The translations under genes were made by a program, and so were the position numbers. Under the pieces are notes generated by a model. It made no database searches. It was not told where the DNA came from and was given only the letters and a program-made list of their open reading frames with translations. Of a stretch of 64,000 bases of DNA, positions 5,172 through 47,343 are shown piece after piece; within the stretch, counting starts at the first letter, position 1; each line of letters starts with the position of its first letter. Origin of the DNA: Azolla caroliniana (taxonomy: Eukaryota; Plantae; Polypodiophyta); NCBI GenBank assembly GCA_043228905.1, contig JBHGNT010000008.1, forward strand, positions 15,810,001-15,874,000. Reading direction: 5' to 3'.

Positions 5172-8032
5172 TTACAATCCAAAAGCTTCAGGGGGAGGAG
5201 GCTCAAGCTTCACTCCTCTCGAATCCAAAAGTTGCACTAAAACAAGATAAGCAACTCCAAGAATAACCGCAATGGCTCCAGTAATTATTGCAGTTGTCTG
5301 ACCTTTCTCCACTTCTGCTCTAGCTGTAATGTAGAAAATTCTCTCTTTTTTTGGGTGAAAGATATCATTTGATTCATACATGCGCAGTAAATTGAAGGTT
5401 ACACTTTCAAAGATTCACAATAAGGCTAAATAATTGCATTATGAACAATAAATAATGAGCCAGATGAAACGGTTAAAAGCCTCAAATACCTTGGGATTGA
5501 GATCCTTCCAATCATACCTTGGGCATGACTTGCCACTTGGTTTTATATCCAAAACACAGAGTCCATAAACACTACAGAGTTCCTATATTTTAGGTGCCAA
5601 TAATGTCAGTCTTATTAAAATAGGGATAACATTCTACAAACAAAGTTTGTGCATGATTGTTGCACTTACTACATGTGGTTGTTTCTATTCTTCACAGTTT
5701 TCCACCAACGAATTACGTCATACAGAATTTGTCTATCATCTTCCAAGTGTCCTTTACTTATCAAACATGTAGCTAATCACTTGACTTGTGCCAATCCATT
5801 TTTCCTTTTCAAGTGATTTTCCTTTCAACTATAAATTGAATTCTTCCCATCTAATTTTAGATGACATTAAAAAGGCTAAATTTGAATCTGCTCCACTTAT
5901 TGAATCTCACATTATTATCCATTCTTCCGTTGTTCTCATTTTGAAATAGCAAATATGTAAATTTGTTAATATACCTCCTTTTCCTATTTGAGAACACCGT
6001 CACTATCACGGGTAAAGTACAAACTATGGGAAAAAAACTTTGGAGTGGTACCCTGGTCTCTATACATTTTCTTATTGGGACTGACATCACTTTCTGCTGA
6101 CTCATTATACCTCACTGCTAGCAACAATCAGAGACAACCAAGTTTCAGGAGACACAAGTCATGGTCGGATCCAAATGGATGACACATATATTTAGATGCT
6201 TTATGGATGTAGATAAAATCAAAACCTAGTTTAACACCACTCAAACATGGGTAATCAGATCAGGTCGTCATTTCTTATTAGAAGGGAAATGTCTTGACTT
6301 TCAAATGATCTTACATGTTAGGAATCACATTTCCAGAGACAACCTCAGCTATACTTTCACGGAGGGTATGCAGCTCTTGGTAACCTTGAGAGAAAACATG
6401 GAACATATTTAGTTTCACAAACCACAGGCAGAGTTGTGGTTCTTTTATAAACTTGTCACATTGACTCTCCTCTATGGGTGATTAATGAGACAGTTCACGT
6501 ATAGATGTGAATCCCCAATAGTTAAAGTGGCACCATTTCAAGTCCATAACAAGATGAGAGCATTCCCGATAATTAATGAAGCCCTATTTTGAGATGTGAG
6601 CTGTTACACTTGGCAGATTTGAGATTCCTGAAAGAAGATATCCAAGATTGGCACAGATGCTACTACAACAGATGACAAAACAAGGGAATACTCGGTGTTT
6701 GTGAGCTCAAAAATGAATAATTGATTTCAACCACATTGAAAAAGTAACAACACACTACCCCTCTTCCTATATATCCTAGATTATCCACACCTGAATGTGT
6801 CTCAAGTGGAGATGAATCGAGTGATCCTAACTGGATATGGTCACATTATTTGTGCCTGGTTTTACACATGTCATTTGATGGATTTAATCATCCAACCCTA
6901 TATTATTGGTACCGAACCCTCTCACAAGCTTCAAGCATGAGCTCTCAACAGCTTTACAAATTGTTTCACATTGAGGCAAGCCAACAATCACACAGGTTTG
7001 ATAGTGAAACCATACGGGCATCATATTTACCATTGGACTATTTACTATGAAATAATGGGAACATACCACATCCTCCTAGCGTAAGGCCTTAGCCCATTGT
7101 GCAAAGTAATGGAATACATAGATCTATGATGCTTGGGATCACTCTTGTTGCAGACCAAGAGACATAAGAAAAGAAACTTCTGAAGACATGAAAATATACA
7201 CAAATCCATATCAGCAAAACACACTCACAGCCTTCTTCACTACTATGACTTCTTGGCAAATCCCCTACTACAGTTGAGCCAAGGGGAGCATCTGCAAGGA
7301 CCCGATCAAAGAAATCCAAAAGAATCACGTCACCATGGATCGGACAATGGCAATTTATTGGGTATGCAGGCCACAGCCTTGAGACCCTTGCCATCACTAA
7401 ATCAAGGCCATCATCACCCGACATAAATGGTGATTTCCCCACTCTAGAATCATCTCCATGTTCGGCCATCTATGTTGGAAACCTTTGAAAGACAAGTTTC
7501 TTGTCAGTTTATGTAAATTTGAATATCTACATTTTGGTAGAGGTTCATTGCATGTCCAAGTTCTCATACCTTCAGCCAAATGATTGTGGGATAGCTGCTT
7601 TAACAAATTTGAATCCTTACTTTTTTTGTCATTATCCAAGATAAGGCAACAATTTTAGATGCAATCTCTTGGCGGAACTTAGGCCATTTTGGCTTCTTCT
7701 ACACATCAACACTTATCAAAAGGCAAGTCCTCTATGGTGAAGCTAACAAGGGATTGATTTATACGTTTATCAGGTGTTACCTTAGCAACAAAATCAGGGA
7801 TGCTCTCCATGGCAAAACAATGAACGATACTCTCCATGGCAAAACAATCAGGGATTGACCAACTTGTGAAAACATTAAATATTTGTTAAATATGTAGAAT
7901 ACATTTTGAGATGGCAGTTCTAAGATGTAGAATACATGTTAAATACTTGAGTATTCTAAAACATATTCTATACATAAAATAGTGCTTTTTAGCAACCATA
8001 GTTTGAAGATGCTAACATATATATGATATACA

Positions 8033-8065
<33 letters not shown>

Positions 8066-8768
8066 GTGTATATATCATGCAAAAACATTGTGGCATTGAT
8101 CGCCTGTATCATTGAAAGACACCATTTCAGTTTAATTGAGTAGATATAACTATTCTTGTTTGACTCTTATAAACATCTATGTACAGGCTTTCCTAGTAGA
8201 TTGTAGTCTGATTAATCATTTCTTTCATTGTTCTCAAAGATCAATCATCTTAAATTATAACCCCATATTGGAGAGACCAGTGTTTCATAGAAAACCAAAT
8301 TTAGAGTAAACTTGAATGCAGAAAAGTCTCCAAGTTTTGAGACGCTCTAGAAGAAAATTTGCTAAAGAGATTGATACTTTCTCTTGCTTTTTTCTTCTCA
8401 GGGATAATTTCCTCATTTGGTATGTACAGGTTCCAATCCATGACAAAGGAATGGGGGATGGATCCCCTTTCGAAACATTTATTACTTTTCTCATAGCTAT
8501 ACACGTTCAGGCACAATAAGAATCAAGTGTTTCCATCATCTTGAAACAGCGAAGTGTACCACAATCCAGATATGGCAAAATCTTACCACAATCAGTAAAT
8601 GGCAGAGTCTTTCGCGATCCAGAAAGAACCAGAGTGTTGCCACATTCCAGAACGACCAACCAAGTGGTGTTATCATGATCCAGAAACAACTAAGTATACG
8701 ATGATCCAGAAACGACTAAGTATTACCACAATCCAGAAACAACGAAGTGTTAGCACAATCTGAGATAC

Positions 8769-8849
<81 letters not shown>

Positions 8850-11800
8850 TAAATATGAGCAAAGTGGAAAAGAATAGAGTGATCTGAACTGATATTATTA
8901 ACTTGGAAAACAAGATAACATGGATCAGCCCCAAAATACCACTTGGTACGAAGATGGCCCACTAGAAGACACACTTCTTACACACATTGGAGGATGGATT
9001 CATCATCAGGCCACCTTATATGGACATACATCTATCCTATGCGCTGCGTAGTGTGATAGGGCAGTTGTGAACTTCATCACATCAGTTACAGAATGAGGTA
9101 GGCAAATATACACAACTACCTCTAGAAGAGAGAATTTGCCAATTGTGTCATCAAGGAGTGGAATCCGAAGAACACTATGTTTGTCACTATAGTGTCTTTT
9201 ATGAAATCAGAGGGAGATACCATTGCCTCTTTAAACAAGGCTTTGGCCCACTACGCAAGGTAATGGAATATGAGGACCAATGGTGCTTAGGACTTTTGTT
9301 ACCGGCCGGCAAGGAGTCCAAAATACGGAGTGAAGGAATTAATTAAGTATGGTTGTAAATGAGCATAGTGTGGACGGACGGACTGGAAACGGTATGCCGT
9401 TCCAGATCCGGACGGATCCCGAATAGGTGCGATAGGCACCGTTTTGTACTACGGGCCGGAAACCTATTTAAAGGCCCGGACCCCATTGTAATTGCAGCGG
9501 ATAATTAATAGAGCGTATGGTGTTTATACTTCTGTGTTGATTTCCGTTCTGTAATTACTGTTATATCTTACGCGTGTAATTAACAAAAGCGCTCTAATCG
9601 TGTAACCTACTTAAGTCGGTGTAATCGTTGAGTCATAATCCTATGCCGTAATCACCCTTTGGTGAAGTGTCTCCGTGACACCTTGTGTTAGGCCTTGTCC
9701 GGTCAGAGAACAACACAGTTTTGGCGACCACGATTCCTGCTTTCTCGCAGCGAACGACGGCTTAATGGATGACTAGACCAACGCACGACCTGGTTACAGA
9801 CCGAGCTCGACGCCTCGCCGAACCGCAAAGACGGCGTGAGACTTTCCAGCAAGCAGCGCACGAAATTCGCTCGGATCGTTCGTTCTCCAACGTGATCCGG
9901 AGAGTCGCGGAGGAATCTCTTCGGTTACAGCAAACTCGCGACCAGGACGACGGAAGCGGTCTAAGTAGTCTCCGGGAAACCGAACGCCTCCTCGAGGCGT
10001 TGGCAAGCGGAGAAAACGAGGCAGAAGCCTTTTCAGCCTACGAATCGGATTCCGAAGGGGGATACAACGTGCACACGAACTACCGGAGCAGCAACGATAC
10101 CCCCGGCGGCCCGGAGGACGACGGGTCGGATACCGTGCCGACTCCAGAACCGGAACCGTTCGACCAGGGCTATCCGGAACCGCAAACGGAAGCCGTCAAC
10201 CCACCAACACCGGAAGTGGAAGAAGCAAAGCCACCGACACCAACGAAAGAGCCGGCGAAGGTACCGGAAGAAGAGCCGGTGAAGGAACCGGAAGAAGAGC
10301 CGGTGAAGGAACCGGAAGAAGAACCGGAAAAAGAACCGGAAAAAGAACCGGAAGTGGAACCGGAGAGAAAACCGGAAAGATATCAACAAACGCCACTAAA
10401 CCGCGGCCTAATACTGGACGACGACATGCCGTTCCAATACTCAAAGTATCGCGATGATCCGGACGCGGAAGCGCATGTTCATGCCTTCGAGCAGACATGG
10501 GAACCAAATCACGCGTCCCAGCGATTGACACCGGAGGAAGAAGAACGCTCGAAGATAGCGGAATTCGGGGTCACGTTGGAAGGACCAGCGGCACGATGGC
10601 GGCGGACGCAGGACCCGGCGACCATCACAACCTTTGCAGAATTAAAAGCAAAATTCTTGCATTTTTTCCACAAGGAGGTCGACCAGACGATAATGGTGGG
10701 CCTGTTTTATACGATCCGACAGGAGGCAGGGGAAAGCATTCCCCAATTCGTCATCCGTTTCCAACGAATGCATAGCCAGCTTGCCCGTGCACCCCCGGAG
10801 GAGGAATTACGGACGATATTTTTAAACGCACTCCGGGAACCGTTACGCACGGTGTGTACGGTGATCGACTTTCGAGGAAGCACCATTGACCAGGTCATTG
10901 ACCGGGTCAGAGAAATGGAAAAGTCAAGCTCATGGCTTACACTGGGAGCACTGCAACGGGCGTTACCCACCGATGAAGATCTCCGGTTCCGGCAGGCAAT
11001 TCAATGCACAATCTGCTTGAATGCCGGACACTCGGCAGTGGAGTGCACCATGCGAACCCAGTGTGTGATTTGTCAATCCAAGAGTCATACAACGGACCGG
11101 TGCGAGTATAACCTGCTAAACCGACAAGCACCACCCGTCCGACGGATCGAGCCAAGAAGCAGCCGAGACGAAGATGAAGATCGTTGGCAAAGAATGAACC
11201 GGTACCGACCGGCACAGGATGTCCGGTACGGAGACAGACAAGAGAATGATGGCCGGTACGGGGATCGGCATGATAACTACGACCGGTATGAGCGATCGGA
11301 CCGTTATCGGGAGTCCAACAGACGAGACGAGCAATACGACAGAGACCATTCCCCTGGTTACCGAAGGCACCAGGAGGACTACGGCCGATTTTACGATCCA
11401 CCACGACAGGACTACCGAAATAAAAATAAGAATAATAAGAAACGTAATTTCAAGAAAGGTGGTCACCCTAGGGACCCGGAACATGGAACCCCAAGGAGCC
11501 AACCGGCACAGAACGCACCACTCACTACGGGACCGACTCCGGCTACCAGCAATGCTGAATCCAGCAATACCCGTAAAGCGTACTGCTACTACTGCAGGCA
11601 GGAAGGCCACTACAGTAACCAGTGCCCGGCAAAGAGCTACAATAAACGACCAGCAGTTAATATGGTGGTTCCGGAAGTGGCGGATTTACAGCAAGTAACC
11701 ACACGGTCGAAAGGCATGGCCAAAGAGTGGGAAACACAAGAGGCCATACGAAAGCAGGCGACGGAATGGGTGAAGGAAGCCAATGAAAGGAACGTCGCGG

Positions 11801-14800
11801 ACGCGGAACGGCAAAAGGCGAATACCATAGAGGGTGCCGGCGGTAGCCACGCAGAAAACGAGACATGGCAAGCACTGCAAGAATGTCAGATCACGTTGCC
11901 ATTAGGAAGACTCTTGCAGCTCGTGCCGCGATTTACGGAAGGACTAAAAACGGTCATGTCAAACGGTGTAGCCCCACCGGCACCAGTCCTCTTCTCGAAT
12001 CCGGAGGAGGGACCGACGGTGGTGGACACTAGTAGTCCGGTGATTACAGCTATTGTCAAAGGGCACGAACTTCCCGGCACAGTAATCGATGGAGGTTCCG
12101 GGGTGAACGTAATAAGCCTCCGCACGTGTGATGCCTTGGGTATACATGAATGGGAGCCATGTCCGTTCTGGCTACGGATGGCGGATACGAGCTCTGTACG
12201 GCCGACGGGCTTAATACGGAAATTGGAAGTCACCATAGGAGGTCACACATTTCACATCTCGGCTGTCGTGCTGCAGCTACAAGCGCAAGGCGCGTACCCA
12301 CCGTTGCTGGGCAGACCATGGTTGAAAACAGCACACATCAAGCAAAATTGGCGGAAAAATATGATTACCTTCCGGCGCGGAAAAGCCAAGGTCCGGGTAC
12401 CGACACAACCACGGACGAGCAACGGTAAGGAATGCACACCGCTGTATGCGGAATGCGTGAACATGCTTGAAGGGTTAGCAGACGACGAAGAAGCCCAGTA
12501 CTTGGAGGAACACCCGAAGATCGTACCACTCTTCGAGATTGACGTGGCTGAAGCCGTAGCGCCATACTTGCCACAGCGGGACGAAACCGAAGCTGAACCA
12601 GACAAAGATTCGATTCGGGAATTACGGCAAGCACAGGAAGCGTTGGAACGGGAAATGGCCGTTTCCCAACGGGTAAAAGCATCCCAGCTCGACGAAGTGA
12701 ACCTAGGAAGCAAGGACGAATCAAAGCCGATACACATCGCCAAAGAGATGAAGCCGGAAGATAAAGCGGTGATGATCAAACTTCTCACGGAGTTTCACGA
12801 CGTATTCGCCTGGTCATACGAAGACATGCGAGGGCTGGACCCTCAATTATATCAGCATCAGATCCACTTAGGCAAGGACGCGAAACCAGTGGCGCAAAGA
12901 CGTTACCGAATGAACCCCAACTACGCCGCCAAAGTGAAGGAGGAAATCGACAAACTCCTAAGAGTGGGCTTCATCCGGCCGGTAAAGAAAGCGACGTGGC
13001 TGAGCCCCATCGTCGTCGTCCCAAAGAAGAACGGTAAAATCCGCGTATGTGTAGATTACAGGAAACTAAATGCAGCCACAATTACGGATGCATTCCCTCT
13101 TCCGTTCACGGATGGAGTACTGGATGCCGTCGCCGGCCATGAAGTTTATAGCTTTTTAGACGGGTTCAGCGGATACAATCAAATCCGGATGCACCCTGAC
13201 GACCAGGAGAAGACAGCGTTCGTCACCGAATGGGGGGTGTTTGTTGCCGTAGTAATGATGTTCGGACTAAAAACGGCACCAGCAACTTTCCAGCGAATCA
13301 TCATGGAGATCTTCGGTGAATACATTCCAGCCTTCATGCAGGTTTTCCTGGATGACTTTGCAGTCTATAGCCGGGAAAAAGACCATTTGCAGCACCTACG
13401 GTTATGCCTTGAAAAGTGTAGGTTATACCGGCTAAGCTTAAACCCAGCGAAATGCATCTTTGGGGTGTCAAGTGGAATCTTACTGGGACACATTGTAAGT
13501 AAGGAGGGCATTGCGGTCGACCCGGACAAAGTAAACGCGATACTAGGGGCACCGGTGCCGAAAACGGCCAAAGCACTAAGCCGATTCTTAGGACAGATCC
13601 GGTGGCACAGCCGGATGCTCCGTCACTTGGCTGACTTGGCTACACCATTACACACCGCGGTACATCGGACACCGTTCCAATGGACGGATACGGAGGATAA
13701 GGCATACAACGCCCTGAAGGTACTTTTGTCGCAAGCACCCGTCGTGCAGCCTCCGGATTGGAGCAAGGAATTTCATGTGTTCGTTGACGCTTCCGACATC
13801 GCTATTGGCAGCGCCTTAATGCAACTTACGGAGCCCAAATGGTACCGGCCGGTATATTACGCCAATCGGAAGCTGTCCCAAGCGGAGAAGAACTATTCGA
13901 CTACGGAACGGGAGGCCCTGGGCATGATCTACAGTGTCACAAAGTTTCGTCATTACCTATTGGGAAGGAAGTTCTCCTTTCATGTGGATCACTCGGCGCT
14001 CCTGTACTTAGTGTCCAAGGCGTCCCTGACCGGTAAGTTGGCCCGTTGGACCTTGCTGTTGCAGGAGTTCGAATTCGAGATCTTCCACCGACCCGGTATC
14101 CAGCATGCCGTAGCAGACTACCTGAGCCGGTTAGAGTCCGGAGAATCAGGCGACGGAGTATCGGATGAATTCCCGGACGCAGAGTTATTCCGTATCACCC
14201 CGGAAACGGCAGCGGACGACACGGTGGCATCAGAAGATAGGTGGCTGACAAACATGCACCAGTTCCTAAGCACGGGCCTGCCACCGGAGGAAATGAACCG
14301 GGACGAGAGGAAACGACTGGCGGTGCAGAGCCGCAATTTCTGTCTGTTACGGGACACTCTCTACCACAAGGGAGCAGATGGAATATGGAGACGGGCAGTC
14401 CGTAGTGACGAGAAACAAGTAATCTTACGGGAAGCACACTGTGGGGTTGCCGGAGGACACTATGCCGGGGAAGCGACGGCAAGGAAAGTATGGCAGAGCG
14501 GCTTATGGTGGCCCACGACGTTAAAAGACGCCGTCAAGTATGCTAAGGAATGTGACCTATGCCAACGAATGGGCCAGCCTACGGAGCAAGCACGGATGCC
14601 ACACCAACCGGTACTTCCACTAGAGCCATTCCAGAAGTGGGGGTTGGATTTTGTCGGACCGTTCAAGCCACCGGCAATGAGAACGAGTAATCGTTATGTC
14701 ATCGTGGCAACAGATTATTGCACTAAATGGGTGGAGGCTAAGGCCTTGAGAGACAACACCGCGTCATCCACAGCAAAATTCCTGTACGAGAACATTTGGT

Positions 14801-17800
14801 GCCGATATGGATGTCCGATTGAATTAATCAGCGACCAAGGAGGGCACTTTCTCGGCCAGGTAGTTGAAAGCTTAACAACGTTCTATGCCGTGGTCCATAA
14901 ACGGAGCACACCGTACTACCCACAAGCAAACGGGTTAGCAGAGTCAACCAACAAAACGCTCCAGAACATTCTCCGCAAAATCGTCAATGAAAACCGGACG
15001 GACTGGGATACAAAGCTCCATAGCGCGCTATGGGCGTACCGAACGGCATACAAAACAAGTATCCGGACAACGCCGTTCCGGTTAGCGTTCGGCTTAGAGG
15101 CGGTCATGCCGGTGGAATTTCAGGTACCAAGCTTACGGATCCAACTACGGGAACGGCTGAATGAAAAGGAGTCGGAGGAAATGCGGCTAGCAGCACTATG
15201 CGAACTGGAGGAGCAACGGCTTGCCAGCATCCTACACATGGAACTGGAGCAACGACGACGGAAAGCGTTCGTTGACCGTCACCGGAAAGGTAATGAAAAG
15301 ATGTTCGAAATCGGAAAGCCGGTGCTAGTATTCCAAACGAGGATGGGCAAGATGCCGGGTAAACTCCGGTTTAGATGGACAGGCCCGTATTGGCTGACAC
15401 AGGAATACAACGGGTCCTATCAATTAGGGACACTTGCCGGTGAAGTGCTAGGCAAGTGGGTCAACGGATTTAGACTAAAGCCCTATAAAGGACCGATGCC
15501 AAGTAACCCGTTTATGCAGCCCACCGGCACTATCCCGGGAACCTGTCAGGGAACGGTACGGATGGAAGAAAAAGACGACGGGGAACCCGTAGCAGAGGCG
15601 AAGGAAGACACGGCAACCCGTAAGGAAAACGGTAAGGGTCCGAAGGGACCTACGGATGTGTAAGATCACATACCGTCAAAAAAAACAAAAAAAAAAAAAA
15701 GAAATCATTAAAAATCGAGGTATGAACGGACGTGAAAGCAAGGAGCGAAAAGGTACGTAGTGGGCATTTAAGAGCCGCCACATGACTTAATACTAAATTG
15801 GTACACGACGTGCGCACGCTCGAAAAAGGCGCCAAGACGCACAGAGAAAAAGCAGAACGCATGGAGACCTTTTCATTTCGCGAGCCAAGAAGCACAGAAG
15901 CACCAAGGCGGTTGAAGCTTATCAGACACGAACCTGCACTCAGAGAACCCCCACGTTCTGAACTCTCTCTCTCTCGCTCTCACTCTCATCACCACTCTAC
16001 CTCGCCATCTTTCCTCGACCTCGAAGCAGACATGGACCCACAAACGCTGTCGGAAGCGGCCAGGAAATGGCTCAGGCAACACGGACTGGATGGGTTCTTG
16101 ACCATCATGGAGGCACCACCGCACAAAGAAGCCGACCGGGTCATCAAGGAGCTCGACACAGAAGTCATCACCGAGGAAGCGATCCGTGCGCTAACAGGCC
16201 TTTCGGAGGGAGGTATTTTTCAGATCGATAACCCAACCTCGGAGCAACTCATCCGATATTTCGGTGAGTACTCTCTAGCCGGCAAAGGCTATCGAACGCA
16301 GGGCGGCGAAGATCCGCTATTCAGGGAGATAGCTCGAGTGCTCCATGAGTACGGCCACGTGTACCCCCGACCCCCTGTCATGCCAAAAAATCGGGCAGGG
16401 ATGATCATAGCCACCTATGAAGGGATCAAGGTGGATTGGCCGGTGTTGATTGCAGACGGTTTGTGCGCGGCAATCGACACAGTACGAGGAAAGGACGGCA
16501 AGGAGGGCCGGAAGCTGTGGCATGCCGTAGCTCAGTGGATAACATTGCTCGCGCCGCCGGTCGAGACCGTTCAGCCAAAGAAGCGGCCAAGATTATCGAA
16601 AGGAAGCACCCCGAAGCCCGCGTCCAAACGACAGCAGTTGTTGGCGTCGAAGGCGACGAAAGGGAAGAAACGGCTCCCGGAACCGGAGGAGTTACCGGTC
16701 CGACCCGTTAAGATAACCATACGGCGACCGGGACAGAAGGAACCGGAACCCTTGACGGCACAGATACATGCCGTTACCCAGGAAGAGGAAACGGAGGAGC
16801 CAGTAGAGCACCTCCAACGACGGTCAAGCAGTAGGACCGCCGGGACAGCGGGGGAGCGTTCGGACCCGCAAAAGGAAGAAACGCCCCCAACTCAACCTGA
16901 GCAAACCACAAGGGAGGAACCGGAACCGGTCCGTATAGAACCGGCCTTGTCGGCTTCTATACAAGAAGTCATTCCAACGGCTCCGGAGACGGCGAGAACC
17001 GGAACTCAACAGCCGGCGAGCCCAGCCAGCACACACAGCGGCCAAGGAGTAGAACCAGAACGGCAGATACAGGCACTCGGGCCAGACAATTCCACAGTGA
17101 GGACTGGTGCCGGTGGGGCTACACCGTTTGACATGACCGTTTTTAGTCCTTCCGTAAATCGCGGCACGAGCTGCAAGAGTCTTCCTAATGGCAACGTGAT
17201 CTGACATTCTTGCAGTGCTTGCCATGTCTCGTTTTCTGCGTGGCTACCGCCGGCACTCCCTATGGTATTCGCCTTTTGCCGTTCCGCGTCCGCGAAGTTC
17301 CTTTCATTGGCTTCCTTCACCCATTCCGTCACCTGCTTTCGTATGGCCTCTTGTGTTTCCCACTCTTTGGCCATGCCTTTCGACCGTGTGGTTACTTGCT
17401 GTAAATCCGCCACTTCCGGAACCACCATATTAACTGCTCTAGAGCTCAAGTGACATCAGGAAAAGTTGTTGAAGAATACAGCCACACAAGCTCATCCACA
17501 AAGAGCAATCACAACTTTCTTTAGCCCCATCGCTCCTACTAATGCTACAAGTCAATCACGGGATACACAAATGGGCTCCCGACCAGGACATAACAAAGGG
17601 GTTACAATTGATCGGGCAATAGCAATTTGTCGTGCAAGTAGTGTTGAGAATCAAGCTCAACTTGTGTGAACATGTGCTTATGAAGAAAAGGACGATGTGT
17701 GAAAAAGTGTGTGAGCACACTTTATTGTAATCCGTGTCGTTGTCGAGTGTGTGACCACACTTTATTGTAATCCGTGTAATTGTCGTGTTGATGTAGACAA

Positions 17801-20800
17801 AGAATATTAGATATTCTTATGACAAAATCGTACTCAATTGGATATCTTGGTTAGATTCCACCAACACATTTAATATAGCAGTCCCTTGAGGACTTGTATA
17901 TAAAACCCCCTTTGCCCATTCTGTTTTGTTGATGATCTTTAGTTAATTAATCTAGCTCTCTTAAGTGCATCAGCTGTCATCCCCCTACTGTGTTTTCTTA
18001 TTTTCTGGTTATTCTCTCCGATTCCTTCTCTTGCTTATACACTCACTCTCATACACACACTACGCTTCTGAATATGAATGAAAATGCATTTGCGCAGACT
18101 ACATCTATGGGCATACATAGATGGAAGCAAAGCCAAACCTGACAAAAGTGAAGTAGGCCAACGACCTCAAGCTAGGATGGCACAACTTCAACAAAATCCA
18201 CCATCATTAGGTGAAGAAATGTATATATTCAATACCAATTTAACCAACACAACAGGTTTAGACCTTTCATGGTACCTCAATACCGGCACCACCCATCATA
18301 TGACATTCGACAAACTATACCTAACACAATACAAAGAGCTTACCACACCCCTAGACGTCCACCTCGGAGATAACAGCACTAGACAAGCCCAAGGATATGG
18401 TACCCTCACCTTCAGTCTACCCAACAATCATCTACATATTCATAAAGTTTACTTTGTACCGGGACTTATAAAGAACCTCTTATCAGTAAGTCAAGCAACC
18501 GAATGCGGCTACATACTCTTGTTAAATGTAACTCTTGTCTCTTCGAATCTCAACTCCCAAACGGCACATCATATACAATTCCCTGTTTCAAAACACAAAA
18601 CCTATACCCAATTCCCATCACACCCATCAAAATATCAAATGCCTCTCATCAAATCCATGACGCTGGAATTCAAAACACCCTCAAATGGCATCTTAGGTTA
18701 GGTCACCCACATCTTCAAGCCCTTCATAAGATCTGAACACACAACCTTGCCGATGGAATAATAGGTCCTTTCACCCACCTAACCTTTTGTGAAGGCTGCC
18801 TCTTCAGAAAAATGACCTCCAATCCATATCCTCGTTCAACCCAATACACAACAAATCCCCTCCAACTTATCCACACTGATCTATATGGACCAATGCCAAC
18901 TCCCTCCCTCACCGGAGCTCTTTACTTTCTCACATTTATCGATGACTACACACACTACACCATCATCACTTTCCTCAAAAAGAAATCTGACGCCCTATCC
19001 CATTTCTTAGTCGACAAAAATCTTGTTTAAAGCCAATTAAATAAAAAAATCAAAATCCTACAAAGTGATAATGGAGGAGAATTCAATTCGAAAGAATTCG
19101 ATAACATACTACAATCACAAGGAATCCAGCATCAAACAACCATACCACATCATCCTCAACAAAACCGAAAAGCAAAGATAAAGAATCGCACACTCATGGA
19201 TGTTGCTCGATCAATGCTAAAAACTGCAAACCTCCCAAACACGTTTTGGGAAGAAGCCGTGGCAACAGCTTGCTATTTACAAAATTGATTGCCTACGACA
19301 ACACTCAGCAGCTCTCAAACACCATTCGAAAAATGGTCAGGTATCAAACAAGATCTCTCACCTAAAGATCTTTGGCAGTACAGCATACTCATATGTACCC
19401 GATGTGACTAGAAATAAACTAGAAGATCGAGCAACCAAACAAATTTTTGTCGGCTATGGTGACCGCTTCGGCAAGAAAGGATATCATCTTTACAATCCAA
19501 TCACATGTAAGTTTCAATTTAGTAGAAGTTGCATTTTTTATGAAACTTCTATCTTCTCACCACCACCTCAAATACTTCTCATGAACCATCTAATCAAAAC
19601 TCAGAAAATCTAACCCCTGATGAATATGATCCTTCCAATGATACAGTAGACCTAATCCGCCACATAGCTAATACTAATAACAAACAACCCACACCATATT
19701 TATCTACTCAAGAACAAAGCCCTTCCCTACAAACTCCACAAGAACCTACTCCATCGCTTACTTTTGAAAATCCCAAAACCCCAAAACCTCCCTCTAAATT
19801 CATTCCAACTCACATACCATCAAGCTCCTCAATACAAAGATATCAAAGCACTCCACCCAAACACAAATCCATTCAATGCACTTCAGCAAGGCTAAAGGCC
19901 ATAGCATACACATCCCTTCCACCACATCCAACATTAACATTAAATACCATACCCAAGAAACCCCATACCAAACCCATTGCCCACAATTTCAATGTTTGCT
20001 TAAACCCACAACTCAAATCAAGTATGCCTCGCAGCTATGAAATCAGAAATCGAGTCAATAAATGAGAAAGGTAAATGGATTTTAGTACCTCGTCCAAAGG
20101 ATCATCAAGTCATCACAAGCAAATGGCTGCTCAAACGCAAACTCAATCCAGATCGATCGTTACATCGTCACAAATCAAGATTAGTTGCTCGTGGTTTCAA
20201 TCAAGTAGCAGGTATTGACTTTCATGAAACCTTCTTCCCCACGCTTATCATTACAAGCCTTAGAACAACCATCGGTCTAGCAGCACAACTTAACCTCTAC
20301 ATCCACCAAAGTGATATAAAGACAACCTTTCTCAATGGTGACCTAGATCAACCAATTTACATGGAACAACCTAAGTACTTCAAAGACATCAAACACCCTA
20401 ACTATGTATGCCTATTGAAGAAAACCTTATATAGTTTAAAACAATCCCCTAGAATTTGGTACTATAAGCGACACCAATTTCTTATCAACAAAGGATATAA
20501 AAGGCTCAAATTAGATCAAAATCTCTACACAAGGCATAATGGTAATCACATACTCATTTTAGTTGTTTATGTGGATGCCATCTTAATCATTAGTAATGCA
20601 GTTGAGCATATTAAAATGGCCAAAGAAGAACTCGCAACAACCTTTTCCATTACAGATGGTGGATCCCTTCACTACATGATAGGTATCGAGTTCAATTTCC
20701 ATGGTCCAGATAACAGCATTCAACTCTATCAAAGAAAGTGCACAGAAGACATCCTTAACAAGTATCAAATGATGGATCTCAAACCATCACCTATACCCGT

Positions 20801-21978
20801 TGCTCCACACCTCTCACTCAGCTCTGACATGGTTCCCAAGGACCCTCAAGAGATAAAAGAGATGGAAACTCAACCATTTCGAGAAATGCTTGGAAGTCTA
20901 AGGTATCTTGTATCATGTACTGGACCAAATTTATTCTATATCACAGGTTATCTATCAAGATTTATGCAGAACCCAAGTAAGCCACACTTAGATGCCCTAC
21001 TCCAAGTGCACCACAAGAGTTTGTACATCTATATTCCCAAAGTTCACTTTAGGGATCGACAACCAATCATGTATCCAAACATCATGAAAATACTAAACAT
21101 ATTGACTACAAGTACTTTTATGTAAAAGAATTGATAGACGGAACCAAGGAAGATCAACCAATACCTGTAGTCAATTATACTCCTACAAATCAACAAATAG
21201 CTCATTTTCTCACAAAAGCAGTACCTAAACCCAAATTTGCGTTTTGCTGCAAATCTATTGGACTTATTAATGTAACTTCAAATAGAAATAGCCATAGCTT
21301 ATAATTCTAAAAACAAAAAAAGGGAAAATGTGAACACTAATTCACATGAATCCAGAAATAACTGTATCCCAAATAGCTTCTCGTATCTTGTATCTATACA
21401 TGTCTATTCATATCTTGTACCTGTACGTATCTGTTCATATCTTGTATCTGGCTATTTAATAGTCCCATACTCATTAATAGAATTAACGCTTCTATCAAAT
21501 TGCTATTACCAAACATACATTATCACATCATGCATACACACCTTCTGCTTTCTTATCTGATACATTGCTTCCATTTGAGCTCTCTGTAATCGGAGTTGCT
21601 TGAGAACTACTACTACTGCTAGTCTTCTCCTCGGAATTCGCAAATATTTTCCCTTGTCGTACGAAGGAGCCCCGCGAATTGCAAGCAACGGGGCTGAAAT
21701 CTAGATAAACAAGGAAAAGATATCAAATACTGATGAATGTGACGAGAAAAAACAAACGAAAACGACAACAGGGGGGCGGAGAGGTGCGGGCAAAAACAGG
21801 AATCCATCACAAAATAGAAGCAAAAAATAGGATAAGACACAGGATATGAGAGGAGGGAATGCACGCCTGTTCGGAAACGAGAGGCTAGGGGAGGAAACGC
21901 GGAGCTTTTTGTTGTGAGGCAGGCATGGTGAGAGGAGGAGGGAGAGGAGGAGCAGAGCATCGCCATGGCCATGGCCAT
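5172..21978 (-). CDS. Small (~140 aa) putative plastid single-TM protein; exons 21978-21867, 21700-21542 and 5323-5172, with a ~16.2-kb intron 2
   Basis: Exon 1 is Ser-rich and transit-peptide-like (MAMAMAMLCSSSPSSSHHAC...RFRT). Exon 2 (DFSPVACNSRG...SDKKAE) is 159 nt, phase 1-1. It splices in frame to the terminal exon ARAEVEKGQTTAIITGAIAVILGVAYLVLVQLLDSRGVKLEPPPPEAFGL*. The model needs a GC donor for intron 1. The C-terminus resembles a small cyanobacterial membrane peptide (from memory, unverified). Confidence 0.7.
6850..7640 (-). mobile_element. Possible highly degenerate LINE ORF1 (DUF4283-like) remnant
   Basis: Broken minus-strand frames contain ...KGFQHRWPNMEMILEWG... and ...MPVWF..., reminiscent of plant L1 ORF1. 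Many stops. Confidence 0.3.
8535..8770. repeat. Degenerate ~25-40 bp tandem repeat (CACAATCCAGAAACGAC.AAGTGTTA)
   Basis: ATCCAGAAAC / CCACAATC core repeated about 8 times. Confidence 0.75.
8775..8846. repeat. (CT)n microsatellite
   Basis: Seen directly. Confidence 0.95.
8930..9296 (+). mobile_element. LINE (non-LTR) ORF2 C-terminal remnant, split by the Gypsy insertion and resuming at ~17439-17670
   Basis: ..IGQL*TSSHQLQNEVGKY..LPLEERICQLCHQGVESEEHYVCH.. is the C-terminal zinc-finger region of plant LINE ORF2. The frame continues as LELK*HQEKLLKNT after 17439. Confidence 0.7.
9769..15663 (+). CDS. Gypsy Gag-Pol polyprotein, uninterrupted 1964 aa
   Basis: Gag with CCHC knuckles, protease (VIDGGSGVN), RT (LDGFSGYNQI, FLDDF), RNase H (VDASD), integrase (HxxxxxGH..CDLCQ, GLDFVGPF, SDQGGHF, NGLAE). 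No chromodomain seen. Confidence 0.95.
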   Translation: MTRPTHDLVTDRARRLAEPQRRRETFQQAAHEIRSDRSFSNVIRRVAEESLRLQQTRDQDDGSGLSSLRETERLLEALASGENEAEAFSAYESDSEGGYNVHTNYRSSNDTPGGPEDDGSDTVPTPEPEPFDQGYPEPQTEAVNPPTPEVEEAKPPTPTKEPAKVPEEEPVKEPEEEPVKEPEEEPEKEPEKEPEVEPERKPERYQQTPLNRGLILDDDMPFQYSKYRDDPDAEAHVHAFEQTWEPNHASQRLTPEEEERSKIAEFGVTLEGPAARWRRTQDPATITTFAELKAKFLHFFHKEVDQTIMVGLFYTIRQEAGESIPQFVIRFQRMHSQLARAPPEEELRTIFLNALREPLRTVCTVIDFRGSTIDQVIDRVREMEKSSSWLTLGALQRALPTDEDLRFRQAIQCTICLNAGHSAVECTMRTQCVICQSKSHTTDRCEYNLLNRQAPPVRRIEPRSSRDEDEDRWQRMNRYRPAQDVRYGDRQENDGRYGDRHDNYDRYERSDRYRESNRRDEQYDRDHSPGYRRHQEDYGRFYDPPRQDYRNKNKNNKKRNFKKGGHPRDPEHGTPRSQPAQNAPLTTGPTPATSNAESSNTRKAYCYYCRQEGHYSNQCPAKSYNKRPAVNMVVPEVADLQQVTTRSKGMAKEWETQEAIRKQATEWVKEANERNVADAERQKANTIEGAGGSHAENETWQALQECQITLPLGRLLQLVPRFTEGLKTVMSNGVAPPAPVLFSNPEEGPTVVDTSSPVITAIVKGHELPGTVIDGGSGVNVISLRTCDALGIHEWEPCPFWLRMADTSSVRPTGLIRKLEVTIGGHTFHISAVVLQLQAQGAYPPLLGRPWLKTAHIKQNWRKNMITFRRGKAKVRVPTQPRTSNGKECTPLYAECVNMLEGLADDEEAQYLEEHPKIVPLFEIDVAEAVAPYLPQRDETEAEPDKDSIRELRQAQEALEREMAVSQRVKASQLDEVNLGSKDESKPIHIAKEMKPEDKAVMIKLLTEFHDVFAWSYEDMRGLDPQLYQHQIHLGKDAKPVAQRRYRMNPNYAAKVKEEIDKLLRVGFIRPVKKATWLSPIVVVPKKNGKIRVCVDYRKLNAATITDAFPLPFTDGVLDAVAGHEVYSFLDGFSGYNQIRMHPDDQEKTAFVTEWGVFVAVVMMFGLKTAPATFQRIIMEIFGEYIPAFMQVFLDDFAVYSREKDHLQHLRLCLEKCRLYRLSLNPAKCIFGVSSGILLGHIVSKEGIAVDPDKVNAILGAPVPKTAKALSRFLGQIRWHSRMLRHLADLATPLHTAVHRTPFQWTDTEDKAYNALKVLLSQAPVVQPPDWSKEFHVFVDASDIAIGSALMQLTEPKWYRPVYYANRKLSQAEKNYSTTEREALGMIYSVTKFRHYLLGRKFSFHVDHSALLYLVSKASLTGKLARWTLLLQEFEFEIFHRPGIQHAVADYLSRLESGESGDGVSDEFPDAELFRITPETAADDTVASEDRWLTNMHQFLSTGLPPEEMNRDERKRLAVQSRNFCLLRDTLYHKGADGIWRRAVRSDEKQVILREAHCGVAGGHYAGEATARKVWQSGLWWPTTLKDAVKYAKECDLCQRMGQPTEQARMPHQPVLPLEPFQKWGLDFVGPFKPPAMRTSNRYVIVATDYCTKWVEAKALRDNTASSTAKFLYENIWCRYGCPIELISDQGGHFLGQVVESLTTFYAVVHKRSTPYYPQANGLAESTNKTLQNILRKIVNENRTDWDTKLHSALWAYRTAYKTSIRTTPFRLAFGLEAVMPVEFQVPSLRIQLRERLNEKESEEMRLAALCELEEQRLASILHMELEQRRRKAFVDRHRKGNEKMFEIGKPVLVFQTRMGKMPGKLRFRWTGPYWLTQEYNGSYQLGTLAGEVLGKWVNGFRLKPYKGPMPSNPFMQPTGTIPGTCQGTVRMEEKDDGEPVAEAKEDTATRKENGKGPKGPTDV
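15861..17098 (+). CDS. Gypsy accessory ORF2 downstream of pol (Athila ORF / plant transposon protein-like), 3'-truncated by an inverted segment
   Basis: Open frame 15798-17204 (first ATG 15861). Motifs ITEEAIRALTGL and YEGIKVDWPVLI, then a basic and Pro/Glu-rich tail. The last ~35 codons are antisense gag sequence. Confidence 0.65.
17099..17438 (-). repeat. Inverted 340-bp copy of Gypsy internal segment 11652-11991
   Basis: Reverse complement aligns without gaps, with about 4 substitutions by manual comparison. Visible in ORF 17006..17449(-). Confidence 0.95.
17790..21330 (+). mobile_element. Degenerate Ty1/Copia element (frameshifted gag, PR, IN, RT, RH)
   Basis: SWYLNTGTTHHMT (PR), WHLRLGHP, IHTDLYGP..FIDDY (IN), KSRLVARGFNQ..G.DF.ETF, DIKTTFLNG, YSLKQSPR, VYVDAIL (RT) and QQIAHFLTK (RH). 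Purine tract at ~21315-21328. Boundaries approximate. Confidence 0.9.
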
Positions 21979-22134
21979 ACGCGCATATATTTATCTGCTC
22001 AATGAACCCAACAAAACCAGAAACTGAAAGAAGAAGATGAAGAAGAAGAAGAGCTGCCCTTCGGTTTTCACTAATTGCAGACCATACCCCTAGTAGTCTC
22101 TTCCCCTTCTTCCTCTACTAACTCTATTTAGTGA

Positions 22135-22325
22135 GTCGACCGGTTGAGTGATTAGTGATTACCGGGTTGATTAATTAGTGGTTACCAGGTTGATTAATTA
22201 GTGGTTACCTGGTCGATTTATTAATGAGTATCAGGTTGATAAATCATTGGTTACCAGGTTGATTTATTAGTGGTTACCTAGTTGATTAATTAGCGATTAC
22301 CAGATTGAGCACTAATTATCGGGCT
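22135..22325. repeat. ~21-22 bp tandem repeat (GGTTGATTAATTAGTGGTTACCA), ~8 copies, in the bidirectional promoter
   Basis: Seen directly. Confidence 0.9.
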
Positions 22326-34483: not shown

Positions 34484-36668
34484 TTAGACTTCAGCCAGTG
34501 ATTCCGCTTTCACCTTATTTGCTTCATCATCAGCACCTTCATTTTCGTCATCTTCATATTCTTCTTCATCGTCACCTTCTTCATAATCTTCATCACTATC
34601 GCTAACTTCATCCTTCAAAGAGGAAAACTCAGGTGGTCCCTCTGTCTTCTCGGTCATGGCTTTACCCCGAGTTATGACCAAATGCCTTATTACCCTTTCA
34701 TCTTTATCCAGAAGAGTTTTGAACTCATTGATTGCTTGAGCCTGTATCTGTATGTTCATCAAAATGTAGTTTGCGTTTTTTGCTTTTTGAATTTTGTATG
34801 CTAGTTTTCTCATGCCCCAATCATCCAGCCTCCAAATTCTCCCTTTCTTCTCTCTAACAAAATCTGTCAATACATGGAAACAACAGAGAATCACACTTGA
34901 TTCTTAATCAAAGTCTGGAAAGAAGAGGGGGAAAAAATTGTCTGTTGATAAACTAACCTTTCACCTTCTTAATCACATCCTGAAGTTCATCTACACGATT
35001 TTCATGTACAAGAAATACTGCCTCATAATGACGAGCTGTCCAAAATTTAAAAGTTTGCCTCATATTTCAAAGACATATCCAGGTTGTAGAAAAGAAGCAT
35101 AATTGAAGTAAAAACACTAACCTGCTTCAAAACCTTGTTTGCTCTCAAAAAGCAGCTTGAGTACTTCATTTGGTTCCTCTGAAGCAAAAGAATAATAAAA
35201 TACAGGAAGCGTAAGATAATACATATTACAGTCTCTGATGGAGATTATGCAAATGTGCTAAATTGCTTAATTGCAACTTGCAAAGGAAAGCTTAGAAATA
35301 CTGCGAACCATTTGTTCTTTGCCATCAGTCTTAATGCAATCAAAACAACAAAAAACGCCAAAAAACAGAGCAAGATATTGTGCTCAAATCTCTTAAAAGA
35401 ACCATCAATAAGAAAGATAAGACAAAACTGCAAATTATTTGTTTCTTAACAAGCAATCAGAAACACAACTCGAGAAAGCAGTGGAAGATACTGATTGACC
35501 CACTGCCAAATCTGTTAAACACGGCTTGCAAATGGAAAGAATAGACAATACCAGAAAACATTTGTTTCCTTCCAGCAGAGCCTCAAATGCAATCAAAACA
35601 CACATAAAAGCAAGAAATCATCCGAAGGTACTATGCACAAGTCTTAAATACTGCTAGCGGAAGGAAATAGTAGACAATGCTGCAAACCATTTGCTTTCTC
35701 CCAGCAGGATTAAAAGCAACCAAAATATAAAAGCGCAAGAAATCAATGAACAACACCGTGCCAATTCAGTTTAGCAGCTGTCATCCTTCCAAATCATGTT
35801 GTATTAGACCCAATGCAATGAGCACTTCATGTCAATGAAAGAGCTGGCAAAAGTTAAGATTAGACAATGCCACAAACTATTTGACCTAGCCAGCAGCCTT
35901 AAATGCAATAAAAAACATAAAAATATCACCATATGCGTTCTTTTATTGTTCTCTTACGGTATCACTGAATCACTTTTTTATGTTTACTTGATTCCTAGGA
36001 ACTCTTGAAATGAGGCAAAACAACATTGTGAGGACAATATGAACTTGGCCAAAGAATGGCCCTGGCCAGCCAGCCTCATCATTTGGAATGTGAATAGTCC
36101 ATTCCAATCAACACGGGATTCCAATGTGCCAAGAGATGTTGGCAACCTATGAAGTCACTTCTAAGTTATTGTTATTCTTTTTCTTCTTCAACACAATTGA
36201 GAAGCTAACAATTAAAACACCAAAAATAAGTCAGAAAACAATGCAAGATCCTCTCAAGTTAAGGCATAAACCAGAAAGTGTAGTTTCAAGTGATTGAAAC
36301 AGAAAACTGGAATTGCAAAAATTATATAAAACTTCACAATCAAAACACACAAGAAAGAAATGAAGAAATTTGAAGGCAGATCCTTCCAAATTTAAGAAAT
36401 AAACCAGACTTTATGCAAAGCGAACCTCGATCGATCTCGAATAAATCCGGCACTACAACCTTTTCTTTCTTCTTCAAAAGCTGTGGTTCAGGTTCAGGTT
36501 CAGGTTCAGGTTCAAGTACGGCAAGACAGACCTGAATAAGGACAGAGGAAAATTGTTTCTAAACGGAAATGAGTTATTCATGCAAAAAAGTCGGAAACAA
36601 CAGAGACACGAGAGAGAAAATAAGAAATTTGAACCAGAGAGAGCGAGAGAATAAGAAGAAGAAGATTG

Positions 36669-45980: not shown

Positions 45981-47343
45981 GGTTTTCTTCTTCTGATTAG
46001 AATTAGGGTTTGCTCTTCAAGTTCAAGGCAGGCAGGTAGGTAGGCAGGCAAGAAAAGGGGGGGGTGGGTTGCAGGTCCATCCATCTTCTCTTTTTTCTGT
46101 GATTTTTGTTGCCCATCCATGGCGATGGCGATGGCGATGGCGATGTTTCTCGTCCTCACTAGGGCCCCCTTCCCCACCAGAAATGGTGATGGAGTCAATG
46201 GCGATGGTCATCCATCTCCCCTTCTCCCCCTCTTCTCCGTCTCTCAGAGACCCAGACCCAGTCTCCTCTGGATTAAATTAGAAGCATTCGATAAACAGGT
46301 CAAGCTCCCTCCCCCTTCTTCTTTAAAAGAAAGAATCCCTAATCTTCCACAAGTTTCCTCTGTTCCACTGACGAATCCCAAACCTTCCATGATTTCCCTG
46401 TGTTTAAAAAGTAAACCCTAATCTTGCGAACCAGCCGGAATCCTCCCAGAAACAAACCCCCTGTCTTTTTTTTTTGTGTGTGATAGAGACAAGCCCTGCT
46501 GCTGTTCCTATCCTCCCCCAATTCATCTATGCGCATATACTTCTGTTTTTGCATCCCTCGTCTCTGTCTTTATGCACCTCCTCTGTCTTCTCAGAACTGT
46601 GCCATGCGCTTTATTTTCTCGATTAACCCCAATGTTGTCTGGTTAACCTTGACCATTTCACTAGTTAACTGTAATTTGCTACGCCTTTTCTCCCGCTCTT
46701 CAATCAGTAATAAGGTGAAAACAAAAAGAGAGCACGTACTCCTCTAGCAGGGTAGTTGAGGATTATTAATGTCGCTCAATCATTGTTTCCCAGCTTTATA
46801 TGATCTGCACCATATATTCTCAACTGATCCCATCTATGACATTCAATTGATTCCACATAGATTCCCATAAATTGGTTACGCATATAGCATCAATAAAACA
46901 AATGCTGCCAGATTCCACACAGATTCTTTTCTGTTCATTTTGCATCGATAGCTCATATGGTCACCAACCAATTCCACATAGATCGATTGTAGATTCCCTT
47001 GAGTTGATTCCACGTGGATCCTTATCAATTGTTTCCATGTAGATAAACTGATGAGTACCATTCGATTCCACCTTTAGATCGGCCTTTAGATTGATAACCT
47101 GATTCCAGCAAAAAGATCAAATGGATTTGTTTCTTGATTCCATTGAAGATTGATCAATATGATTCACATCGTATTGATTACACAAACATTCTCATCAAAA
47201 TTGATACCACATAGATTCTCATTGAATTGATTCCACACAGGTTCCCGACAATCGGTGGAATCTCCATTTCTTGATTGAATGTTGATTTGAGAAGAGACTG
47301 GATCCATCCAGTTTGAATTGAATTGTTGGGCAGAGTGCAACCA

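What the first reader, a model, noticed from the sequence alone, without database searches (positions are those of the whole stretch)
21540..23640. Two unrelated divergent genes share a duplicated leader + two-exon transit-peptide module (inverted duplication)
Seen: the minus-strand small-protein gene and plus-strand PYG7 begin with homologous sequence in inverted orientation. They share the 5' leader and a 112-nt exon 1 (MAMAMAMLCSSSPSSSHHACLTTKSSAFPPLASRFRT vs MAMAMAMLGSSPSPYPPHGCLTTRSSASPPLLTRLQT). They also share the acceptor TAG|ATTTCAG and a homologous phase 1-1 exon 2 (DFSPVACNSRGSFVRQGKIFANS...NGSNVSDKKAE vs DFSSSAHVSRGFFSQRGCFYANS...NGSSSSDQKE). Indels in exon 2 keep the frame (159 vs 129 nt), and the downstream exons are unrelated. 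Known: organellar proteins can acquire targeting peptides by duplication or exon shuffling. Inference: one gene captured or replaced its promoter and transit peptide from its neighbour, creating a mirror-image bidirectional unit that may co-express and co-target both proteins.
Basis: partly seen in the sequence, partly recalled or inferred. Interest (0 to 1): 0.85.

Follow-up and report, generated by a model that had tools for sequence, protein, structure and literature searches.

The report
Fern gene borrowed neighbour's chloroplast address
In a fern, the gene for a photosystem-assembly protein begins with an inverted copy of its neighbour's first two exons, both genes are spliced that way in RNA, and the copy likely replaced the protein's original chloroplast-import address.

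Summary
Real and expressed. PYG7 (plus strand) and a small single-helix protein gene of cyanobacterial origin (SMP, minus strand) share an inverted copy of the leader (90% identical), coding exon 1 (78%) and exon 2 (64%). Assembled RNA contigs from 3 of 3 RNA-like runs splice both copies to their own downstream exons. PYG7 joins 23604 to 25681, so ATG 24658 is intronic. SMP is the likely donor: its exon 2 ends in a D-K-K motif found in 9 of 11 named land-plant SMPs, while the PYG7 copy has decayed. PYG7 kept its own lumenal-signal exon and its downstream introns, and seems to use a new acceptor 58 nt inside its ancestral exon to stay in frame. The two genes lie on different chromosomes or records in 5 of 5 other land plants checked, so the pairing is derived. 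Borrowing a targeting signal by duplication is known (rps11, SODcp-rpl32, trx-m/rps7). Here the recipient is an old nuclear gene that replaced only the stromal half of a two-part signal, and the donor sits head-to-head beside it. Import and co-expression are untested.

The parts
5172..5323 (-). SMP exon 3: conserved single-helix membrane core, stop codon
   Evidence: RNA loose end at 21542 equals 5294-5323
5324..21541 (-). SMP intron 2 (16,218 nt), holding a Ty3/Gypsy-type ORF (9766-15663) and a Ty1/Copia-type RT ORF (20004-21125)
21542..21700 (-). SMP exon 2 (159 nt, phase 1-1): end of predicted transit peptide plus native SMP linker ending D-K-K-A-E
21701..21866 (-). SMP intron 1, GC-AG, 166 nt
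   Evidence: joint 21700/21867 in X1, X2, X4
21867..21978 (-). SMP exon 1, coding part (ATG 21978)
21979..22092 (-). SMP leader (CTT-rich 5' UTR and probable core promoter), donor copy; transcribed at least to 22016
22093..23168 (.). Spacer between the arms: 23-bp tandem array (22119-22331) and 219-bp tandem duplication (22660-23076); only the ~100 nt next to each leader show weak inverted similarity
23169..23275 (+). PYG7 leader, inverted copy of the SMP leader (95/106 identical); transcribed at least from 23259
23276..23387 (+). PYG7 exon 1, coding part (ATG 23276), copy of SMP exon 1
23388..23475 (+). PYG7 intron 1, GT-AG, 88 nt, same position as SMP intron 1
23476..23604 (+). PYG7 exon 2 (129 nt, phase 1-1), shortened copy of SMP exon 2 ending D-Q-K-E
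23605..25680 (+). PYG7 intron 2 (2,076 nt) containing the inferred fusion point, a 208-bp x3 tandem repeat (24010-24633) and the unused ATG 24658
25623..25680 (+). Probable relic 5' part of the ancestral PYG7 exon (phase-0 AG before 25623), now intronic
   Evidence: 56 codons to the A-H-A-E site, as in Adiantum (56) and Pteridium (55); indirect
25681..25973 (+). PYG7 exon 3: native lumenal-type signal ending A-H-A and the transmembrane span
26579..26725 (+). PYG7 exon 4
27183..27461 (+). PYG7 exon 5: TPR repeats, stop codon

Best explanation
PYG7 and its head-to-head neighbour SMP begin with inverted copies of one leader and two exons, both are spliced into full reading frames in RNA contigs, and the PYG7 copy was likely duplicated from SMP and likely replaced PYG7's own promoter and stromal transit peptide. 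Shown: homology, splicing, open frames of 140 and 319 residues. Inferred: a DNA-level rearrangement put about 0.55-0.65 kb of the SMP 5' end (leader, exon 1, intron 1, exon 2, donor site) in front of a 5'-truncated, intron-bearing PYG7, breaking in the intron before PYG7's lumenal-signal exon. The borrowed exon ends in phase 1 while the old PYG7 exon likely began in phase 0, so splicing moved to an AG 58 nt inside the old exon, which keeps the frame. Predicted: the SMP-derived first ~58 residues drive import into the stroma, PYG7's own signal is cut after residue 120, and mature PYG7 is normal.
For: Homology far above shuffles. Spliced contigs in X1, X2 and X4; X1 record 2 (1,118 nt) spans 23259-27585 with 0 differences in exons 1-4; no splice joints in the probable DNA run X3. 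Constraint: exons align while intron 1 does not, indels keep the frame, dN/dS 0.42 (bootstrap 0.21-0.83, 79 codons). Polarity: SMP exon 2 scores 17.8 bits on a profile of 8 land-plant SMP linkers (0 of 500 shuffles); 9 of 11 named land-plant SMPs carry [DE][KR][KR] there, against 2 of 20 PYG7 N-termini carrying [DE]K[KR] anywhere; gene calls that appear to read into the intron place it at the same site in other SMPs (P0011, P0171, P0173, P0176, P0180). Recipient relics: AG at 25623 lies 56 codons before the A-H-A-E site, like the inferred Adiantum exon start; exon 4 matches a duplicated segment in a rice isoform end to end. SMP and PYG7 N-termini are unrelated in 6 of 6 same-species pairs from 5 species (58-266 of 300 shuffles reach the score; window pair 179 vs shuffle maximum 60).
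Against: No import assay or targeting predictor was available; the transit-peptide call rests on composition (15 S/T, 4-6 R/K, 1 acidic in 58 residues) and position. The PYG7 copy of exon 2 itself does not score on the SMP linker profile (-0.5 bits, 354 of 500 shuffles); it is tied to SMP only through the window's own copy. Exon 1 has no detectable relative in either family, so its origin is assumed to follow exon 2. The 19 relic codons match none of 6 fern-clade PYG7 N-termini (71-299 of 300 shuffles), and the Adiantum boundary comes from one gene model with a 31-residue insertion (P0307). Simple dN/dS counting is biased low by transition bias. No genome is held, so a second, more diverged PYG7 is not excluded. 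The D-K-K motif is mostly a land-plant feature (14 of 36 hits overall, 7 hits without the core dropped).
Confidence: 0.82

Rival explanations
1. Marriage then divorce: the PYG7 tail first landed in SMP intron 2 and shared SMP's exons by alternative splicing; the locus then duplicated in inverted orientation and each copy lost one tail. Same donor, different route.
For: This route is described for SODcp-rpl32 (PMC8429499, passages). The genes are unlinked in 5 of 5 other land plants, so PYG7 or SMP had to move.
Against: No second SMP exon 3 and no PYG7 remnant in SMP intron 2 anywhere in the window (tblastn), although retrotransposons have remodelled that intron.
Confidence: 0.1
2. Reverse direction: the module is PYG7's and SMP captured all or part of it (most plausibly only the leader and exon 1, by later gene conversion).
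For: Exon 1 and the leader have no traceable relative in either family; the inner part is much more alike than the outer part (118/129 vs 64/89, Fisher p = 2e-4), as later exchange would give.
Against: Exon 2 and the intron after it are native SMP features, and PYG7 shows a probable abandoned acceptor.
Confidence: 0.05
3. The PYG7 copy is transcribed but not needed: a spare chimeric paralogue, with the working PYG7 elsewhere.
Against: Intact 319-residue frame, end branch 0.25 not flagged as long, inside the fern clade; run X1, read whole, gave only this one PYG7 contig at 80% or more; both sequence versions in X4 carry the 23604/25681 joint; dN/dS below 1.
Confidence: 0.03

Closest known systems
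Targeting-signal acquisition by duplication: rice rps11 (Kadowaki et al. 1996, seen only as cited in PMC7488351; the paper itself was not held) and Populus rpl32 with a SODcp-derived N-terminus
   Same: An unrelated protein begins with a duplicated targeting region of another nuclear, organelle-targeted gene.
   Different: Those recipients were genes newly moved from an organelle with no signal of their own. PYG7 is nuclear across green plants and algae with its own presequence (PMC11449065, section 21), so this is a replacement; it kept its introns and lumenal signal, and the donor lies 1.3 kb away head-to-head.
SODcp-RPL32 in Viola/Bruguiera and rps7 in a thioredoxin-m intron in Passiflora (PMC8429499, PMC7488351; passages)
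   Same: The borrowed unit is whole host exons joined to the new gene through an intron.
   Different: SODcp-RPL32 in Viola and Bruguiera shares one physical copy by alternative splicing; here there are two diverged copies on opposite strands.
PYG7 / CGL71 / Ycf37 photosystem I assembly factor (PMC11449065)
   Same: One membrane span plus C-terminal TPRs, A-x-A site about 21 residues before the span (Arabidopsis predicted A101-A102, span I121-I141); groups with fern orthologues.
   Different: The first 80 residues come from another gene, and the lumenal-signal exon appears 19 codons shorter at its start than in Adiantum.
Head-to-head gene pairs with bidirectional promoters (general concept, recalled)
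   Same: Divergent orientation, start codons 1,298 nt apart.
   Different: Each gene has its own copy of one leader, so this looks like twin promoters back to back rather than one shared promoter.

Membership tests
PYG7/CGL71/Ycf37 | Single membrane span followed by TPR repeats | tested here: met
   Pfam TPR_1/TPR_2 above cut-off in exon 5; hydrophobic span in exon 3
PYG7/CGL71/Ycf37 | Orthology to named PYG7 proteins | tested here: met
   67-72% identical to Adiantum and Pteridium proteins; starred 9-row clade 100/99 in a 20-row tree
PYG7/CGL71/Ycf37 | Two-part presequence ending in an A-x-A site before the span | tested here: met
   A-H-A ends at residue 120, span starts near 142; site conserved in the alignment; by sequence only
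PYG7/CGL71/Ycf37 | Required for photosystem I accumulation, binds PsaC | not testable with these tools
   Known for Arabidopsis (PMC11449065, section 21)
Targeting signal gained by duplication (rps11 / rpl32 type) | N-terminal exons homologous to those of another organelle-targeted nuclear gene | tested here: met
   donor's plastid location is inferred from cyanobacterial origin and N-terminal extensions in plant relatives
Targeting signal gained by duplication (rps11 / rpl32 type) | Borrowed exons spliced in frame to the recipient | tested here: met
   3 of 3 RNA-like runs
Targeting signal gained by duplication (rps11 / rpl32 type) | Recipient is a gene recently transferred from an organelle that lacked a signal | tested here: not met
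   Land-plant and algal PYG7 carry their own N-terminal extensions; exon 4 boundaries match rice
Targeting signal gained by duplication (rps11 / rpl32 type) | Import driven by the borrowed peptide | not testable with these tools
   composition only
Shared targeting exon by alternative splicing (SODcp-RPL32 type) | One physical copy of the targeting exons serves both proteins | tested here: not met
   two diverged copies on opposite strands
Bidirectional promoter pair | Two starts driven by one shared promoter, co-expressed | tested here: inconclusive
   separate leader copies 1.07 kb apart; contigs show neither start sites nor expression level
Transposon-carried gene fragment (Pack-MULE type) | Terminal inverted repeats and target-site duplication around the captured piece | tested here: inconclusive
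   none seen in repeat list or dot plot; the event is old (dS about 0.7) and target-site duplications were not searched for directly

The most novel reading that the evidence does not exclude
The two leaders are kept about 90% identical by continuing gene conversion across the inverted repeat, locking an essential photosystem I assembly gene and an uncharacterised cyanobacteria-derived thylakoid protein into one regulatory programme; SMP would then be an unrecognised photosystem biogenesis factor, apparently missing from flowering plants, and the locus a self-homogenising twin promoter.
Probability: 0.12. Interest if true: 0.75.

Novelty: new variant of a known kind. Interest (0 to 1): 0.5.

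Why it matters
It is a natural transit-peptide swap on an old and, in Arabidopsis, essential nuclear gene. It suggests that the stromal and lumenal halves of a two-part chloroplast signal can be exchanged separately at an intron, and that a frame mismatch can be rescued by moving the splice acceptor. One ancestral peptide now diverging on two unrelated cargoes allows a direct test of how far transit peptides adapt to their passenger. It also points to an unstudied small protein conserved from cyanobacteria to gymnosperms.

Tried and rejected
PYG7 starting at ATG 24658, or using a 24656-24759 exon plus the 25623 acceptor: an open frame exists on paper, but 3 of 3 RNA-like runs skip it and show no depth in the 24565-24775 bin; joining exon 2 to 25623 directly stops after 141 codons. 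Old cyanobacterial linkage: 0 of 69 cyanobacterial SMP loci have a PYG7/Ycf37 hit within the flanks held, up to 3 kb. A chance repeat of ATGGCC: another gene start at 46120 has a similar hexamer run, but the homology here extends well beyond it. A perfect palindrome: spacer halves do not align (128 of 300 shuffles). Using the gap in run X3 (no contig on 23160-23720) to date the event: a hole in low-depth contigs proves nothing, and the copies (dS about 0.7) are far older than X3's 5-10% divergence. Ranking expression by contig depth: not valid for these data. Naming SMP: no Pfam or NCBIfam family above cut-off, no solved structure (best E 0.22), Atlas hits under 0.9, no paper with three locus tags. 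Finding a close relative's full proteins: none (one search was insensitive, 1 hit). The exon 2-exon 3 junction of SMP rests on loose ends in X1 and X2, not on a laid joint.

Full report
Observation. The region 21542-22092 (minus) and 23169-23604 (plus) are inverted homologues: local score 326 against at most 42 in 200 shuffles (arms also). By segment: leader 95/106, coding exon 1 87/112, exon 2 83/129, each matched by 0 of 300 shuffles; about 100 nt further inward 67/98 (0 of 300, AT-rich and motif-driven); intron 1 and the first 150 nt of intron 2 no better than chance (152 and 295 of 300). The peptides are 47 of 79 aligned codons identical.

The genes. The plus gene is PYG7: TPR families in its last exon, 67-72% identity to Adiantum and Pteridium proteins, and a starred clade with them in a 20-row tree, outside the Pteridium plus Adiantum group. 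The window is therefore from a fern; no genome is held. The minus gene (SMP here) encodes 140 residues with one hydrophobic span in a third exon at 5323-5172. It has no family name. Relatives occur in cyanobacteria (69 loci), green algae, bryophytes, a lycophyte, ferns and two gymnosperms.

Both copies are used. Four runs were laid on 21400-27700 at 80% likeness (contigs only, RNA status guessed by the tool; several tables cut). X1, X2 and X4 cover exons and skip introns; X3 covers introns and shows no splice joints. Joints, with the tool's cut offsets: 21700/21867 (GC-AG on the minus strand), 23387/23476, 23604/25681, 25973/26579, 26725/27183, each in 3 of 3 RNA-like runs (the 88-nt intron is listed two places left in X2 and X4). 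X1 record 2 carries the whole PYG7 frame, which translates to 319 residues. The loose end at 21542 in X1 and X2 equals 5294-5323, the start of SMP exon 3; X4's is not among the rows shown. X2 and X4 also hold a second version about 90-94% identical, and in X4 two contigs carry the 23604/25681 joint, so the arrangement is older than that split. ATG 24658 is intronic.

Constraint. Exons align across an intron that does not, indels keep the frame, and simple counting gives dS 0.72, dN 0.30, ratio 0.42 (bootstrap 0.21-0.83). This method is biased low, so it is moderate support. The first 58 residues of each protein have transit-peptide-like composition; no predictor or assay was available.

Direction. 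SMP exon 2 scores 17.8 bits on a profile of 8 land-plant SMP linkers, 0 of 500 shuffles; the PYG7 copy scores -0.5 (354 of 500); the 17 of 20 PYG7 N-termini that were scored reach at most 1.7. The motif ending SMP exon 2 is present in 9 of 11 named land-plant SMPs, in 14 of 36 SMP hits overall (7 without the core dropped), and in 2 of 20 PYG7 N-termini at any position. Five gene calls that appear to read into the intron break at the same site. So exon 2 and its intron are native to SMP; exon 1 cannot be traced either way. On the PYG7 side, an AG before 25623 (phase 0, 12 T in 30 upstream bases against 8 for the used site) lies 56 codons before the A-H-A-E site, the same as the Adiantum boundary inferred from a 31-residue insertion in model P0307 (56; the matching Met is at 55 in Pteridium and 58 in P0121). 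I infer that the used acceptor, 58 nt downstream and phase 1, was recruited inside the old exon. Against this, the 19 relic codons resemble none of 6 fern-clade proteins. Exon 4 matches a duplicated segment of a rice isoform end to end, so PYG7 was rearranged as DNA, not as a retrocopy.

Linkage is derived. By locus tag or record length the two genes lie on different chromosomes or records in Adiantum capillus-veneris, Marchantia, Riccia, Ceratodon and Diphasiastrum, 5 of 5 species where both were returned with such information; unseen paralogues are possible. Their N-termini are unrelated in those species, though old similarity would also have decayed. In cyanobacteria 0 of 69 SMP loci have a Ycf37 hit nearby.

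Mechanism. Shown: homology, splicing, open frames. Inferred: an inverted copy of the SMP 5' end was joined to a 5'-truncated PYG7 in the intron before its lumenal-signal exon, and the acceptor shifted to keep the frame. Predicted: borrowed stromal peptide, native lumenal signal cut after residue 120, span from about 142, matching the Arabidopsis layout (PMC11449065, passages and section 21). Whether the genes were first neighbours, were joined in one step, or passed through an alternatively spliced stage is open; no relic of the last was found. The leader plus first 23 coding bases are more alike than the rest of exon 1 (118/129 vs 64/89, p = 2e-4), which fits either regulatory constraint or later conversion. 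Co-expression could not be tested.

Known cases. Gaining a targeting signal from an existing gene is established: rice rps11 and Populus rpl32 (as cited in PMC7488351, passages; the rps11 paper was not held), SODcp-RPL32 (PMC8429499, passages), Passiflora rps7. A multi-genome survey names exon shuffling as a source and found no alternative-first-exon candidates in its own test (PMC7456531, passages). In the cases read, the recipients were newly transferred organellar genes. Seven searches of the held library (listings only, apart from the papers named) showed no report of this locus or of a head-to-head replacement; subscription papers are not covered and no supplements were read. Three look-ups in earlier scan notes gave nothing on this genome and one bacterial analogue.

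Verdict. A real, expressed chimeric 5' end; a new variant of a known kind. Confidence in SMP-to-PYG7 replacement 0.82; interest 0.5.

Noticed in passing
window 5172-5323 and 21542-21978 (minus): SMP is an unnamed small membrane protein conserved from cyanobacteria to gymnosperms; no flowering-plant name appeared among the hits that carried names, hinting at loss there, but most hits are unnamed.
   Followed up: partly
window 21986 (minus) and 23268 (plus): Both leaders have an out-of-frame ATG at -8 opening a 33- or 34-codon frame that overlaps the main one and stops in exon 1; may dampen translation or be shared ancestry only.
   Followed up: partly
   Followed up: no
window 21542-27673, runs X2 and X4: Two versions of both transcripts, one near-identical to the window and one about 90-94% identical, as in a hybrid, polyploid or mixed sample.
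   Followed up: partly
window 9766-15663 and 15786-17204: An uninterrupted 1,965-codon Ty3/Gypsy-type ORF inside SMP intron 2, followed by a 472-codon ORF with no Pfam match.
   Followed up: partly
window 22119-22331, 22660-23076, 24010-24633: A 23-bp tandem array, a 219-bp tandem duplication and a near-perfect 208-bp triplication cluster around the fusion locus.
   Followed up: no
window 29219-31819, 34484-34903, 47317-47742: Neighbouring genes: an 866-codon PPR ORF, a ribosomal protein S6 exon and a weak PH-domain exon; a start with a similar Met-Ala repeat lies at 46120.
   Followed up: partly
L023 and other cyanobacterial loci: The SMP gene's commonest neighbours are an ABC-type ATPase-like ORF (32 of 69 loci) and two ORFs recalled as the alkane-synthesis pair ADO and AAR (14 of 69 each); these names are recalled, not scanned.
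   Followed up: no
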